Shown here in pieces: positions 7,689 through 62,288 of a stretch of 64,000 nucleotides of DNA. The notes beneath the pieces are model-generated. The model did no database searches and was not told where the DNA came from. It worked only from the letters and a program-made list of their open reading frames with translations. The stretch is taken from positions 17,703 through 81,702 of IMG/VR virus record IMGVR_UViG_3300043391_000370. The stretch is one strand, 5' to 3'. Both the position numbers and the translations under genes were made by a program. Position 1 is the stretch's first letter. Every line of letters begins with the position of its first letter. The stretch comes from a virus. Lineage: Duplodnaviria; Caudoviricetes.

Positions 7689-9755
7689 TTATTTAACACA
7701 ATCAATAACTTGTTTCACTTCACCCTGATATACCTGTGCCGTAAATCCAAAGACAGGTTTTAATTTTGCTCCAGAACCAGTATTTGATATAACTCTTAAA
7801 ACTGGTCTGTCAGTAATGTTTTTAATATTTATGGGAGTAACACTGGAGATTGATCCATTATTAATTACAACATCATATTTATTTTTAAAGTTATCTGTTA
7901 CAATATCTCCGGGTTTATAATTATATCCAGGATTTTCAATAATAACTCTAGAGATTGTTATATTCTGTTGTTGCTGTAGTTGTCCTGCATCCTCCACAAC
8001 TACTGCACCTTCTATATCATTAGGTATCGGTTGATCTCCCAAAGTATATCCTTCACCATCAGAATTAATTACAATTGCCGTAACCTGCCCATTTTCAATA
8101 ACCGATTGAGCAACGGCACCATACCCCTTTCCACAATTATCTGAAATTGATACAAACGGTGGATATGTGTATCCAGAACCAGAAGATGTCATAATTGCAC
8201 CAATAATACTTCCAGTATCTCCCAAAATAGATCCAAAGATTGGAAGTGCCGATGCTCCAGAACCACCACCCCCAAATATATTAATTGTAGGTGGATTGCA
8301 AGTAGTTGGTGTTCCACCAAAACATGCACTCAATCCATTACCAGTAAAGTCTGGAAGACTAATGTTTGGGCTTAAGAAATCAAGAGATCCAACAACACTT
8401 TCAAGTGCAGATAATGGACTTTGGGCACCATCAGCAATAGATTTTGCAGTATTTGCAAGGCTTAGAATATCATTTACATTAAATGATGATGATTGAACAG
8501 GCCCAGAACCAATCTTCCATTTCTGAACACTATCCTCAGGATTTTCAGGTTCTTCCCCACAATTAAGAGATAATGAAATGCCAAGTAGACTTTCGGCAAG
8601 ATTTTTTACTGTATCCAGAAGATTAAAGTTACTAAAACTCAATAGTAAACCAAGAACACCAAGAACTGCAGACATTCCTGCTGTAATTAAATCAATAATT
8701 GCATTTAATATTCCACCAACAAACTGATCAATCACACAATTTACAACATTTGCAACATTTTTTAACAAGGCACATACCATATCTCCAATCAAAGATCCAA
8801 GTTGATCTATAATGCTGCCAATCAAACAAGGAATTAGTTTCTGTAATTGTTTGACTGGTTCAATTGTTGCTGCCTGTGCTTTTGCCCCTGCTAAATGTGC
8901 CGCAGACTTACTTTGTGTGGAAGCAAATACTGTTGCGTATGTAGTGTTATAAACACTTTTAGCACCTTGTTCTAGAGCAGGTTGCAATTTCTCATAAGTA
9001 CCATTTACAACTCCTCCAACAATTTCCGTACTAATACCCTGTATTTTTTTAGAGATTTCTTCACATAATTTTTCAACTTGAGCATCAATCCATTCTTGTG
9101 CTAGATTTGGATATGATTTAAGATCTTGCAAAAATTTAATTGCATTTTGCATTTCTGTGGAGATTTTATCAATCTTAGATCCAGGAATTGTGGTTCCAAG
9201 TTGTAGTGTATCGCCAATTACACTAGAATATGCAATTTTATTGATACTATTTGCAACTTGTGGGGGTAAATGAACGGGAGACTCTTGTGCTTCTGTTGTC
9301 TGCTCATTTGTTTGATTTTCCTTTAACTTAGATCCATCATTTTCTATTTTACTTGTATATCCTGTAAATGGTTGAAATGGCAATCTAAATTCTTCTTTTG
9401 ATGCTCCTTCTTTTGTTTTACCAAATACTCCTATAATAACGGGAAGTTGAGCATTATCACCATCCATAAAGAAACCGAATACGGAATCTCCTGGTGCAAC
9501 TTTTATACTCGTCGCATAATTTCCGGCACCACTACCATCAGTTGCGGATAATAAGACTTGTGCCCAAGGAAGATCATCATTTGATAAGTCCGCCTCATTG
9601 GACGGATGATACCCCATAATACGAACTTTACGTCTATTTCCCCATCCCTCTTTATCAAGTTGCTTCTTTTGAGCAGATTCTGGTGCTACTTGCCCAATCC
9701 ACCAAAGAAAACCATCTCTTCCAACGAAATTACTTTTGAGTAAAGACTGTTCCAT
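7689..9755 (-). CDS. gp5: Baseplate hub subunit gp5 (OB-fold N-terminus)
   Basis: N-terminal DGFLWWIGQV..RKVRIMGYHP..DLPWAQV..GDSVFGFFMDG..QLPVIIG is the gp5 OB-fold signature. Confidence 0.85.
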   Translation of the reverse strand: MEQSLLKSNFVGRDGFLWWIGQVAPESAQKKQLDKEGWGNRRKVRIMGYHPSNEADLSNDDLPWAQVLLSATDGSGAGNYATSIKVAPGDSVFGFFMDGDNAQLPVIIGVFGKTKEGASKEEFRLPFQPFTGYTSKIENDGSKLKENQTNEQTTEAQESPVHLPPQVANSINKIAYSSVIGDTLQLGTTIPGSKIDKISTEMQNAIKFLQDLKSYPNLAQEWIDAQVEKLCEEISKKIQGISTEIVGGVVNGTYEKLQPALEQGAKSVYNTTYATVFASTQSKSAAHLAGAKAQAATIEPVKQLQKLIPCLIGSIIDQLGSLIGDMVCALLKNVANVVNCVIDQFVGGILNAIIDLITAGMSAVLGVLGLLLSFSNFNLLDTVKNLAESLLGISLSLNCGEEPENPEDSVQKWKIGSGPVQSSSFNVNDILSLANTAKSIADGAQSPLSALESVVGSLDFLSPNISLPDFTGNGLSACFGGTPTTCNPPTINIFGGGGSGASALPIFGSILGDTGSIIGAIMTSSGSGYTYPPFVSISDNCGKGYGAVAQSVIENGQVTAIVINSDGEGYTLGDQPIPNDIEGAVVVEDAGQLQQQQNITISRVIIENPGYNYKPGDIVTDNFKNKYDVVINNGSISSVTPINIKNITDRPVLRVISNTGSGAKLKPVFGFTAQVYQGEVKQVIDCVK

Positions 9756-24612: not shown

Positions 24613-24641
24613 ATTCTACATAAAAAAAGGAGACCTGTCAA
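24613..24641 (-). promoter_or_regulatory. sigma70 promoter TTGACA-17-TAGAAT for the thyX/phoH operon
   Basis: -35 at 24641-24636 and -10 at 24618-24613. Confidence 0.75.
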
Positions 24642-24648
24642 GGTCTCC
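24622..24648 (-). terminator. Intrinsic terminator closing the riboswitch-peptide unit
   Basis: ggagacc-tgtcaa-ggtctcc 7-bp stem with a 7-nt A run. Confidence 0.8.
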
Positions 24649-24654
24649 AGTAAA

Positions 24655-24747
24655 TCAACGCATTGCCATTGCAAGTTTTGCTTGATGTTTGCGTTGCTCT
24701 TTTTCTTTTTGTTGTTTGATTAAAATAAGTTGCCAATTGTTTTTCAT
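24655..24747 (-). CDS. 30-aa basic peptide MKNNWQLILIKQQKEKEQRKHQAKLAMAMR
   Basis: AGGAG 8 nt upstream of the ATG; lies between the riboswitch and a terminator. Confidence 0.75.
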   Translation of the reverse strand: MKNNWQLILIKQQKEKEQRKHQAKLAMAMR

Positions 24748-24779
24748 AAGAGGTGCTCCTTTACTTTGTGGGTATTGGT

Positions 24780-24833
24780 GCGTTCCTTCGGTATTCCTAC
24801 TTCCGTTTGCTATTCGCAAATAGCAAATGAACG
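24780..24833 (-). ncRNA. Glutamine riboswitch (glnA RNA motif type)
   Basis: RNA CGUUC-A-UUUGCUAUU-UGCG-AAUAGCAAA-CGGAAGUA-GG-AAUA-CC-GAAG-GAACG-C: P1, 9-bp P2, CGGAAGUA/GAA E-loop and P3, as in the glnA motif. Confidence 0.85.
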
Positions 24834-24839
24834 TTCGAT

Positions 24840-24847
24840 TATTTATG
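24840..24847 (-). promoter_or_regulatory. Late-promoter-like motif CATAAATA
   Basis: NATAAATA ending 6 nt before the riboswitch P1. Confidence 0.55.
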
Positions 24848-24858
24848 ATTTTTATTCT

Positions 24859-24872
24859 GTAACAAATGATAC
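24859..24872. promoter_or_regulatory. NtcA-binding box GTA-N8-TAC
   Basis: tGTAACaaatGATACa palindromic box with AT-rich flanks, ~30 nt upstream of the riboswitch. Confidence 0.7.
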
Positions 24873-24932
24873 AAAATTAAAAACCTTCGTGTGAGAAAAT
24901 TTTGGGGAGATTTTTTCCCACTATTTTGGAAA

Positions 24933-60153: not shown

Positions 60154-62136
<1,983 letters not shown>

Positions 62137-62149
62137 TTGTTAAAGGGTA

Positions 62150-62250
62150 AGTATGAGTTCAAGGGGAATTGAACGATTACAGTATATCCTACACCACCCT
62201 CCAGTGCAGGGATGAGAGATGCTTTACTTCTGATGATCTCGGTTGCAGAA
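62150..62250 (-). ncRNA. psbA leader RNA, PhotoRC-II-like motif
   Basis: ACCGAGA..UCUCUCAU..GAGGGU elements upstream of phage psbA, recognised from memory. Confidence 0.55.
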
Positions 62251-62288
62251 GGTTACGGAACGTAAAGATTTGTCTTTGTTTCCTGACT

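What the first reader, a model, noticed from the sequence alone, without database searches (positions are those of the whole stretch)
24622..24875. Phage nitrogen-sensing unit: NtcA box, glutamine riboswitch, 30-aa basic peptide, terminator
Seen: in order on the minus strand are GTA-N8-TAC (24872-24859), CATAAATA, a complete glnA-type riboswitch (24833-24780), AGGAG, a K/R/Q-rich 30-codon ORF and a terminator. Established: cyanobacterial gifA/gifB (glutamine synthetase inactivating factors IF7/IF17) are repressed by NtcA bound over the promoter, gifB carries this riboswitch class, and IF function depends on basic residues. The box is centred ~30 nt upstream of the predicted start, which is repressor geometry. 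Inference: the phage reads both host 2-oxoglutarate (via NtcA) and glutamine to control a peptide that may inactivate host glutamine synthetase or tune infection to nitrogen status. Peptide similarity to IF7 is weak (K11/R19 spacing only). Glutamine riboswitches have been noted in cyanophages before; the full double-control layout is the notable part.
Basis: partly seen in the sequence, partly recalled or inferred. Interest (0 to 1): 0.85.

Follow-up and report, generated by a model that had tools for sequence, protein, structure and literature searches.

The report
Phage nitrogen-gated riboswitch peptide cassette
An uncultured T4-like cyanophage carries a tiny self-contained gene whose promoter bears a host nitrogen-regulator (NtcA) site and whose leader is a glutamine riboswitch; its 30-residue peptide belongs to an unnamed family that ocean cyanobacteria also keep behind glutamine riboswitches, so the phage has its own copy of the host's nitrogen-status circuit.

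Summary
The aptamer scores 56.3 bits against Rfam RF01739 (cut-off 35).

An exact GTA-N8-TAC box precedes the aptamer at fixed offsets (38/39 or 58/59 nt) in 57 of 68 cyanophage-type riboswitch units. It precedes only 6 of 59 units of other types.

The 30-codon ORF is a real gene. Its frame is open in 41 of 41 distinct homologues, and synonymous changes outnumber non-synonymous ones. It has about 800 relatives at 90% clustering, all unnamed.

In related phages this peptide ("C") is translationally coupled or fused to DUF4278 (IF17-like) ORFs. In 9 of 401 cyanobacterial genomes, all of them small, C-like proteins were found. All nine sit directly behind a Glutamine-II aptamer.

The peptide is not detectably an IF7 homologue (hhalign probability 0.3%). 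The three invariant arginines of IF7 are missing.

Best reading: this is a phage copy of the host gif-type logic. The promoter would be occluded by NtcA and translation switched on by glutamine, so the peptide would be made only in nitrogen-replete hosts. Its target is unknown, and inhibition of glutamine synthetase remains unproven.

This is a new variant of a known kind. No RNA or binding data could be obtained. The scan had flagged the same stretch once before, in an overlapping window.

The parts
24858..24873 (-). NtcA-type box. The core GTA-N8-TAC is at 24872-24859, and with flanks it reads TGTA-N8-TACA.
   Evidence: Exact pattern match. An exact box sits at the same 38/39-nt offset from P1 in 21 distinct related loci and at 58/59 nt in 31 more. 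It is present in 57 of 68 cyanophage-type units and 6 of 59 other units (Fisher p 7e-18; the loci are related, so this p overstates independence).
24840..24847 (-). -10-like element. The hexamer TAAATA is at 24845-24840, and the 8-mer also resembles the T4-type late motif.
   Evidence: A TA(A/T)ATA hexamer lies 13 nt after the box in both spacing classes and 5-6 nt before P1 in class 38/39. That it acts as a promoter is inferred.
24833..24835 (-). Predicted transcription start, at the 5' edge of the aptamer.
   Evidence: Inferred from the position of the -10-like hexamer.
24777..24835 (-). Glutamine riboswitch aptamer, type 1 (glnA RNA, RF01739). P1 pairs 24833-24829 with 24785-24781. P2 pairs 24827-24819 with 24814-24806.
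   Evidence: cmscan 56.3 bits against gathering score 35. P2 and P3 differ by compensating changes among related loci (judged by eye).
24772..24780 (-). Anti-SD segment directly after P1. It begins with the C that forms the long-range pair in the ligand-bound aptamer.
   Evidence: The linker folds so that the G of P1 and positions 24780, 24778, 24777 and 24774-24772 pair with the GUA-AA-GGAGC stretch that contains the SD. The energy is -4.5 kcal/mol. The same hairpin forms in three other linker variants at -5.1 to -8.3 kcal/mol. This matches the model proposed for Synechocystis gifB (PMC6212724).
24756..24761 (-). Shine-Dalgarno AAGGAG.
   Evidence: Read directly from the sequence. The motif AGUAAAGGAGCA is conserved in all single-aptamer relatives.
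24655..24747 (-). 30-codon ORF for the family 'C' peptide, stop codon included.
   Evidence: The frame is open in 41 of 41 distinct homologous DNAs, against 2 and 7 for the other frames, with 3185 synonymous and 2548 non-synonymous single-base codon differences. There are 794 clusters at E<=0.01 and 152 representatives at 50% identity. AlphaFold2 predicts one helix over residues 2-29 at pLDDT 91.9.
24622..24648 (-). Intrinsic terminator: stem-loop 24648-24629 and T-run 24628-24622.
   Evidence: Terminator scan. An equivalent hairpin plus T6-8 follows the last ORF of the cassette in 28 of 41 related loci.

Best explanation
This is a self-contained transcription unit of about 210 nt in a T4-like cyanophage. 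It reproduces the regulatory logic of host gif-type genes. The steps below are marked shown or inferred.

1. Promoter (inferred). Host RNA polymerase would start at the 5' edge of the aptamer, from a TA(A/T)ATA -10 element.
2. NtcA (inferred). The NtcA box sits where a -35 element would be, centred about -30 to -32. When 2-oxoglutarate is high in a nitrogen-starved host, NtcA would bind there and block the promoter.
3. Riboswitch (aptamer shown; mechanism inferred). The leader is a type-1 glutamine aptamer. Without glutamine, the nucleotides just after P1 pair with the Shine-Dalgarno sequence. Glutamine binding would capture the first of those nucleotides in the long-range pair, free the ribosome-binding site and switch translation on.
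4. Product (shown). The product is a conserved 30-residue basic alpha-helical peptide of an unnamed family, 'C'. Picocyanobacteria encode this family behind Glutamine-II aptamers. Related phages couple or fuse it to DUF4278 (IF17-like) ORFs.
5. Terminator (shown as sequence). A terminator ends the unit.

The net effect would be that the peptide is made only in nitrogen-replete hosts. It most likely acts as a small protein-binding modulator in the same nitrogen-control pathway as the DUF4278/IF17-like proteins. Its target is not known.
For: - **Aptamer.** It scores above the Rfam cut-off.
- **Box.** It is conserved at fixed offsets and is specific to cyanophage-type units.
- **-10-like hexamer.** It is conserved 13 nt after the box.
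[quoted passage not shown] The glutamine riboswitch switches gifB translation on, and the MED4 IF17-like gene carries both an NtcA site and a riboswitch (PMC6212724).
- **Anti-SD hairpin.** It forms in all four linker variants tested.
- **ORF under purifying selection**.
- **Family size**.
- **Host homologues.** They occur in 9 of 401 cyanobacterial genomes, all of 1.7-2.7 Mb. All nine lie directly behind an RF01704 aptamer.
- **Links to DUF4278.** Phage loci show C fused after a DUF4278-like part or overlapping its stop. Other database proteins of unknown source show fusions in both orders.
- **Same locus in cultured phages.** S-SRM01 carries A-B-C and P-TIM68 carries B only, each with a box and aptamers.
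- **Terminator conserved**.
Against: - No transcription start, NtcA binding, glutamine response or translation has been measured.
- The -10-like element lacks the usual final T and also resembles a T4-type late promoter.
- In the larger 58/59-nt class, the box lies about -51 from a canonical TTGACT-17-TAnnnT promoter. The sign of NtcA control is therefore not settled for the family as a whole.
- The anti-SD helix is weak in the window (-4.5 kcal/mol). RNAfold of the whole leader prefers a different local SD hairpin.
- The SD side of the helix is invariant, so there is no true covariation for it.
- No DUF4278 gene is present in the 81.7-kb record, which is only 38% complete.
Confidence: 0.68

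Rival explanations
1. The peptide is a functional analogue of IF7. It would bind and inactivate host glutamine synthetase. This could raise 2-oxoglutarate and so drive the phage's other NtcA-dependent promoters.
For: It has the same double control as gifB (PMC6212724). It is a basic helix. It occupies the position next to DUF4278 that the IF7-like domain occupies in IF17. Cyanophages carry many NtcA sites and were proposed to exploit 2-oxoglutarate signalling (PMC3037559).
Against: hhalign of the C family against host IF7-like domains gives probability 0.3%. The three arginines that are invariant in 23 host sequences, spaced 13 and 7 residues apart, have only one partly conserved basic counterpart. 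The literature states that marine picocyanobacteria appear to lack full-length IF homologues and calls their GS regulation unclear (PMC6316151). No Pfam, NCBIfam, PDB or ESM Atlas lead was found.
Confidence: 0.22
2. NtcA activates the unit rather than repressing it, or the box serves another factor. The peptide would then be made under nitrogen stress, or only in the transient state after nitrogen upshift when 2-oxoglutarate and glutamine are both high.
For: In 34 of 64 box-bearing units the box lies upstream of a complete -35/-10 promoter, centred about -51. The review cites NtcA-activated promoters with motifs upstream of -41.5 and a proposed activating site at -77.5 in Anabaena gifA (PMC6316151). 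Sullivan et al. treat cyanophage NtcA sites as promoters (PMC3037559).
Against: In the window's class the box ends 13 nt before the -10-like hexamer, not the 22 nt of class II NtcA promoters (established knowledge). No TAnnnT lies at 22 nt. The host counterparts are repressed by NtcA (PMC6316151, PMC6212724).
Confidence: 0.12
3. The ORF is only a leader or spacer with no function as a protein, or the whole arrangement is a chance juxtaposition.
For: The ORF is very short and compositionally simple, and no family annotation exists.
Against: The frame is open in 41 of 41 homologues and synonymous changes are in excess. The core aligns without gaps across phage and host proteins. Host homologues are always behind a riboswitch. 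The family occurs in natural fusions.
Confidence: 0.03

Closest known systems
Synechocystis gifB (IF17): NtcA-repressed promoter plus type-1 glutamine riboswitch (Klahn et al. 2018, PMC6212724)
   Same: It has the same aptamer class. A GTA-N8-TAC box lies over the core promoter. Glutamine acts as a translational ON switch through an RBS-pairing segment just after P1. The product is a small basic protein.
   Different: The host box lies 24-31 nt before P1 in 42 of the cyanobacterial loci examined. In Synechocystis it is centred at -7.5. The phage box lies 38/39 or 58/59 nt before P1. The phage product lacks both DUF4278 and the IF7-like domain with three arginines.
IF17-like / 'Downstream-peptide' small ORFs behind Glutamine-II aptamers in marine picocyanobacteria (Weinberg et al. 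2010, PMC2864571; Klahn et al. 2018)
   Same: The window peptide is homologous to the N-terminal segment of such host proteins. Some of those host genes also carry NtcA boxes (4 of 9). Both are associated with DUF4278.
   Different: The hosts use the type-2 aptamer (RF01704) and the phage uses type 1 (RF01739). The two types were reported as mutually exclusive in cyanobacterial genomes (PMC6212724). The C segment itself has no Pfam or NCBIfam family and is not discussed in the papers read.
Synechocystis and Anabaena gifA promoters (NtcA sites at -30.5 and -28.5; PMC6316151)
   Same: The box is centred about 30 nt upstream of the start, that is, over the -35 position. This is the repressing geometry.
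   Different: gifA has no riboswitch. The phage start site is predicted, not mapped.
NtcA sites and glnA RNA motifs already reported in T4-like cyanophages (Sullivan et al. 2010, PMC3037559; S-CREM1 paper, PMC9964418)
   Same: The elements and the phage group are the same. P-TIM68 and other isolates are listed as carrying glnA RNA.
   Different: Those papers list the elements separately. The papers read do not describe the fixed box-to-aptamer architecture or the downstream small-ORF families A, B and C.

Membership tests
Glutamine riboswitch, type 1 (Rfam RF01739) | Covariance-model score at or above the gathering score over the full model | tested here: met
   56.3 bits against 35, model positions 1-53.
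Glutamine riboswitch, type 1 (Rfam RF01739) | Selective binding of L-glutamine with a structural change | not testable with these tools
   This needs in-line probing or ITC.
Glutamine riboswitch, type 1 (Rfam RF01739) | Expression platform in which the segment after P1 can pair with the ribosome-binding site | tested here: met
   The hairpin forms in the window and in three other linker variants at -4.5 to -8.3 kcal/mol. The SD side is invariant, so covariation cannot confirm the helix.
NtcA-regulated promoter | GTA-N8-TAC palindrome conserved at a fixed position relative to the promoter | tested here: met
NtcA-regulated promoter | Class II activator spacing, with the box 22 nt before a TAnnnT -10 (centre -41.5) | tested here: not met
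   The spacing to the -10-like hexamer is 13 nt, and no TAnnnT lies at 22 nt.
NtcA-regulated promoter | Repressor geometry, with the box overlapping the core promoter | tested here: inconclusive
   The box centre is about -30 to -32 from a predicted start. The start is unmapped. The 58/59-nt class places the box at about -51.
NtcA-regulated promoter | 2-oxoglutarate-dependent binding of NtcA | not testable with these tools
   This needs a gel shift or ChIP.
GS inactivating factors IF7 / IF17 | IF7-like domain with three invariant arginines spaced 13 and 7 residues apart | tested here: not met
   Host alignment A3 shows the three invariant arginines. In the C family only one position is partly basic.
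GS inactivating factors IF7 / IF17 | Detectable sequence or profile similarity to the IF7-like domain | tested here: not met
   hhalign probability 0.3%, E 0.21.
GS inactivating factors IF7 / IF17 | DUF4278 N-terminal domain (IF17) | tested here: not met
   It is absent from the window peptide and from the 81.7-kb record. It is present as a neighbouring or fused ORF in related phages.
GS inactivating factors IF7 / IF17 | Inhibition of glutamine synthetase by direct binding | not testable with these tools
   This needs an enzyme assay or a pull-down.
Riboswitch-associated small protein family 'C' (unnamed; among the Downstream-peptide ORFs) | Profile match to proteins encoded directly behind glutamine aptamers in picocyanobacteria and cyanophages | tested here: met
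   The window peptide seeds profiles A1 and A4. Nine host hits have E from 4e-5 to 7e-4 per genome. All nine lie behind RF01704, eight of them above the cut-off. The core aligns without gaps.
Rho-independent terminator | GC-rich stem-loop followed by a T-run directly after the stop codon | tested here: met

The most novel reading that the evidence does not exclude
Family C peptides, alone or paired with DUF4278 proteins, may be the missing regulators of glutamine synthetase or of PII/PipX/NtcA signalling in marine picocyanobacteria. Cyanomyoviruses would deploy their own glutamine- and NtcA-gated copies to push a nitrogen-replete host into a pseudo-starved, high 2-oxoglutarate state. That state would feed NtcA-dependent phage promoters, and the cassette would then shut itself off through its own NtcA box.
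Probability: 0.15. Interest if true: 0.85.

Novelty: new variant of a known kind. Interest (0 to 1): 0.62.

Why it matters
How marine Synechococcus and Prochlorococcus regulate glutamine synthetase is unclear, and the function of the many small ORFs behind their glutamine riboswitches is unknown (PMC6316151, PMC2864571). This cassette shows that their viruses keep the same sensor-plus-peptide logic under selection, with a phage-specific promoter layout and a different aptamer class. It also defines a second small-protein family, C, tied to DUF4278 by repeated fusion.

Cultured phages carry the cassette at the same locus: P-TIM68 on Prochlorococcus MIT9515 and S-SRM01 on a freshwater Synechococcus. 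The function of these peptides and the two-signal gate can therefore be tested directly. The 210-nt unit is also a compact natural two-input sensor for 2-oxoglutarate and glutamine.

Tried and rejected
- **Family and structure searches for the peptide.** Pfam, NCBIfam and PDB-sequence searches with the peptide and its family found nothing. The only exception was weak DUF4278 hits on the fused forms.
- **ESM Atlas.** It returned only generic charged-helix clusters.
- **tblastn against phage isolates.** Two family members found nothing, probably because the low-complexity filter masks these K/Q/E-rich peptides. This is therefore not evidence of absence.
- **Homology to IF7.** Rejected after hhalign and after inspecting the arginine pattern.
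- **IF7 in the PDB.** A profile of host IF7-like domains found no solved structure, so no structural comparison was possible.
- **Activator geometry.** The class II spacing was checked and not found.
- **Short query.** It was re-run with a fused form first.

Full report
**Observation**

On the minus strand the window reads, in order:
- an exact GTA-N8-TAC at 24872-24859, flanked to give TGTA...TACA;
- CATAAATA at 24847-24840;
- an aptamer that cmscan assigns to Rfam RF01739 (glutamine riboswitch, glnA leader) at 24835-24777, with 56.3 bits against a gathering score of 35, over the whole model;
- AAGGAG at 24761-24756;
- an ATG at 24747 opening a 30-codon ORF that stops at 24657-24655;
- an 8-bp GC-rich hairpin at 24648-24629 followed by seven T.

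The window is part of an 81.7-kb, 38%-complete IMG/VR record of a T4-like cyanomyovirus. It also holds a PhotoRC-II element and a group I intron. The unit is single-copy in that record. In the window alone, a box within 60 nt of the aptamer would occur by chance about 1-3% of the time. The case therefore rests on comparison with other loci.

**The layout is conserved**

Together with two isolates found by blastn and the window, this gave 129 aptamer units.

Sixty-four of them have an exact GTA-N8-TAC within 80 nt upstream. The background rate in the same loci is one box per 2.7 kb, so about 3 would be expected.

The boxes sit at fixed distances from the first base of P1:
- 38/39 nt in 21 units, including the window;
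- 58/59 nt in 34 units;
- 61/62 nt in 5 units;
- 44/45 nt in 2 units.

The box is specific to one kind of unit. It is present in 57 of 68 units whose downstream ORFs belong to families A, B or C (defined below), and in 6 of 59 units with other ORFs (Fisher p 7e-18). The loci are related to one another, so these p-values overstate independence. The contrast between unit types within one scan is still a fair internal control.

**Promoter geometry**

In both spacing classes a TA(A/T)ATA-like hexamer follows the box after 13 nt. In the window's class this hexamer ends 5-6 nt before P1. A transcript would therefore begin at the 5' edge of the aptamer, and the box would be centred about -30 to -32, over the -35 position.

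The spacing is 13 nt, not the 22 nt of class II NtcA-activated promoters (established knowledge). No TAnnnT lies at 22 nt. Published repressing sites are centred at -30.5 (Synechocystis gifA), -28.5 (Anabaena gifA) and -7.5 (gifB) (PMC6316151).

A scan of bacterial genomes for the same aptamer gave many cyanobacterial loci. In 42 of them a box starts 24-31 nt before P1, overlapping the -10 region, and IF17 or IF7-like ORFs lie downstream. The phage spacing is thus distinct from the host spacing.

The 58/59 class carries an extra 20 nt. This insert holds a canonical TTGACT-17-TAnnnT promoter whose -10 lies in the loop of a hairpin, and the stem sequences differ between loci while staying complementary (judged by eye only). 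Relative to that promoter the box is centred near -51. The sign of NtcA control is therefore less clear for that class. The start site, the binding and the sign of control are all inferred.

**Riboswitch and expression platform**

All single-aptamer relatives share the linker that follows P1 and the motif around the SD. When folded alone, the linker pairs the last G of P1, the following C and the next few bases with the SD region. The energy is -4.5 kcal/mol in the window and -5.1 to -8.3 kcal/mol in three other linker variants.

This is the arrangement proposed for Synechocystis gifB. There, the C after P1 and its neighbours pair with the ribosome-binding site until glutamine binding draws that C into a long-range pair (PMC6212724). 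By analogy, the unit is a translational ON switch.

Two caveats apply. RNAfold of the whole leader prefers a different small SD hairpin. The SD side is invariant, so there is no covariation to confirm the helix.

**The peptide**

The ORF is coding:
- Across 41 distinct homologous DNAs the frame is always open, while the other two frames are open in 2 and 7.
- Third codon positions vary most.
- Single-base codon differences are 3185 synonymous to 2548 non-synonymous.

A profile of 38 phage sequences finds 794 clusters at E<=0.01. All are unnamed and without Pfam domains, and among the 120 best listed the longest contig is 239 kb. The exact window peptide occurs on 30 contigs, and one member of its cluster occurs on 184. 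AlphaFold2 with the family alignment predicts one helix over residues 2-29 at pLDDT 91.9.

In box-bearing phage loci the aptamer is followed by up to three small ORF families:
- A, about 50 aa;
- B, 45-55 aa with two YRG motifs and weak DUF4278 matches;
- C, 26-33 aa, the window's family.

The observed arrangements are A-B-C (10), B-C (16), C alone (9, including the window), B alone (8), A-B (6) and B fused to C. B and C usually overlap by 1-4 nt. An 86-aa protein is a full B-C fusion.

The orthologous locus lies just upstream of a small MDK... ORF and thyX. It carries A-B-C in Synechococcus phage S-SRM01 and B alone in Prochlorococcus phage P-TIM68, each with a box and aptamers.

**Host homologues**

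The C profile was searched against 401 genomes sampled across the cyanobacterial phylum. It hit 9 genomes, all of 1.7-2.7 Mb, which is the size range of picocyanobacteria. E-values were 4e-5 to 7e-4 per genome.

All nine hits are the N-terminal part of 33-58-aa ORFs lying directly behind a Glutamine-II aptamer (RF01704). Eight aptamers score above the gathering score, and the ninth scores 32.2 against 33. Four of the nine also carry an exact NtcA box. The host and phage sequences align without gaps in the core.

An exhaustive profile search adds proteins in which C precedes or follows YRG repeats, or is itself repeated. That library gives no source organisms.

C is therefore a second family of riboswitch-controlled small proteins, shared by host and virus and tied to DUF4278 by repeated fusion. 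It has no Pfam or NCBIfam model. Weinberg et al. noted conserved short ORFs behind Downstream-peptide RNAs, and Klahn et al. noted DUF4278 there (PMC2864571, PMC6212724). Neither paper separates this family, as far as could be read.

**Test of the IF7 idea**

An alignment of 23 host IF7-like domains, taken from ORFs behind glnA aptamers, has exactly three invariant arginines spaced 13 and 7 residues apart. This fits the three essential arginines described for IF7 (PMC6316151). The C family has nearly invariant K11, K16, A23 and L25 and lacks two of those arginines. hhalign gives probability 0.3%.

Membership in the IF7/IF17 family is therefore not supported. What remains is analogy. C is a basic helix that stands next to DUF4278, as the IF7-like domain does in IF17, and it is under the same two controls.

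**Mechanism, with status**

| Status | Item |
|---|---|
| Shown | Aptamer identity |
| Shown | Conserved box, hexamer, linker and terminator |
| Shown | Coding ORF |
| Shown | Family shared with hosts |
| Shown | Linkage to DUF4278 |
| Inferred | Start site |
| Inferred | NtcA binding and repression |
| Inferred | Glutamine-ON translation |
| Inferred | Expression only in nitrogen-replete hosts |
| Speculative | The target: glutamine synthetase, another nitrogen-signalling protein, or host DUF4278 proteins |

**Known and new**

Three things are already known. Glutamine aptamers occur in cyanophages (PMC9964418, PMC2864571). NtcA sites occur in cyanophages (PMC3037559). Host gifB and the MED4 IF17-like gene have the NtcA-plus-riboswitch logic (PMC6212724).

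Four things were not found in the papers searched:
- the fixed phage-specific box-to-aptamer architecture;
- the A/B/C cargo and the definition of family C;
- homology between the phage peptide and host proteins that sit behind the other aptamer class;
- the same locus in cultured phages.

The finding is thus a new variant of a known kind.

The scan's own notes hold one earlier first-stage reading of this same stretch from an overlapping window, with the same idea. It is not independent evidence.

Noticed in passing
L059:~720-890, L012, L073, L038 (related phage loci; not in the window): In A-B-C cassettes the ~50-aa ORF A lies wholly inside the P2 arm of a second, tandem glutamine aptamer. 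The ORF starts 2 nt after the CGTTCAT of P1, and its last codons and stop are the aptamer's 3' half. RNAfold closes P1 around the 170-nt element and pairs the start-codon region of A with codons near its end. Loci without A have the same second aptamer with a short P2.
   Followed up: partly
L004, L008, L013, L021 and other loci with ORF B about 86 nt after the first aptamer; L257:250-365 (P-TIM68): Tandem aptamers have complementary degeneracy. The first keeps the 5' junction consensus but has a variant 3' half. The second has ACGCAAA in place of ACGGAAGTA but keeps GAAGGAACGC. Rfam scores them at 28-34 bits, just under its cut-off.
   Followed up: partly
58/59-nt class loci, e.g. L002:1950-2010, L008, L011; L257:215-270: Between the NtcA box and the aptamer lies a canonical TTGACT-17-TAnnnT promoter. 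Its -10 sits in the loop of a 4-5-bp hairpin, and the stem sequences differ between loci while staying complementary. The window's class lacks these 20 nt. The stem complementarity was judged by eye only.
   Followed up: partly
window 24613-24648 (-): The terminator loop holds TTGACA (24641-24636) and is followed at 17 nt by TAGAAT (24618-24613). The terminator therefore doubles as the -35 of the promoter for the next small ORFs and thyX. TTGAC is present in the terminator loop of most of the 28 related loci that have a terminator.
   Followed up: partly
window, whole; e.g. 9208-9221 (+): GTA-N8-TAC occurs 29 times against 13.7 expected from shuffles (none of 100 shuffles reached 29). The site at 9208-9221 has the extended TGTA...TACA form with a TAnnnT 23 nt downstream, which is activator-like spacing. 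Whether it is intergenic was not checked.
   Followed up: no
window 60244-60466 (-) and 62174-62265 (-): A group I intron (79.9 bits) and a PhotoRC-II RNA (49.4 bits) are present, suggesting an intron-bearing psbA region.
   Followed up: no
L003, L015, L017, L023, L026 and others (viral) and L140, L159, L169, L200, L233 (SAR86, SAR11 and other proteobacterial genomes): Riboswitch units without an NtcA box carry other conserved small-ORF families, at least four of them, some behind tandem aptamers. The same families appear behind the same aptamer in SAR11, SAR86 and other marine proteobacterial genomes. Sharing of riboswitch-plus-small-ORF cassettes between phage and host seems general.
   Followed up: partly
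L139, L161, L163, L175, L179, L180, L188, L204, L208, L215, L225, L230 (cyanobacterial genomes): In several cyanobacteria the type-1 glutamine aptamer sits directly upstream of short IF7-like ORFs of 44-59 aa that lack DUF4278, and not only upstream of IF17.
   Followed up: partly
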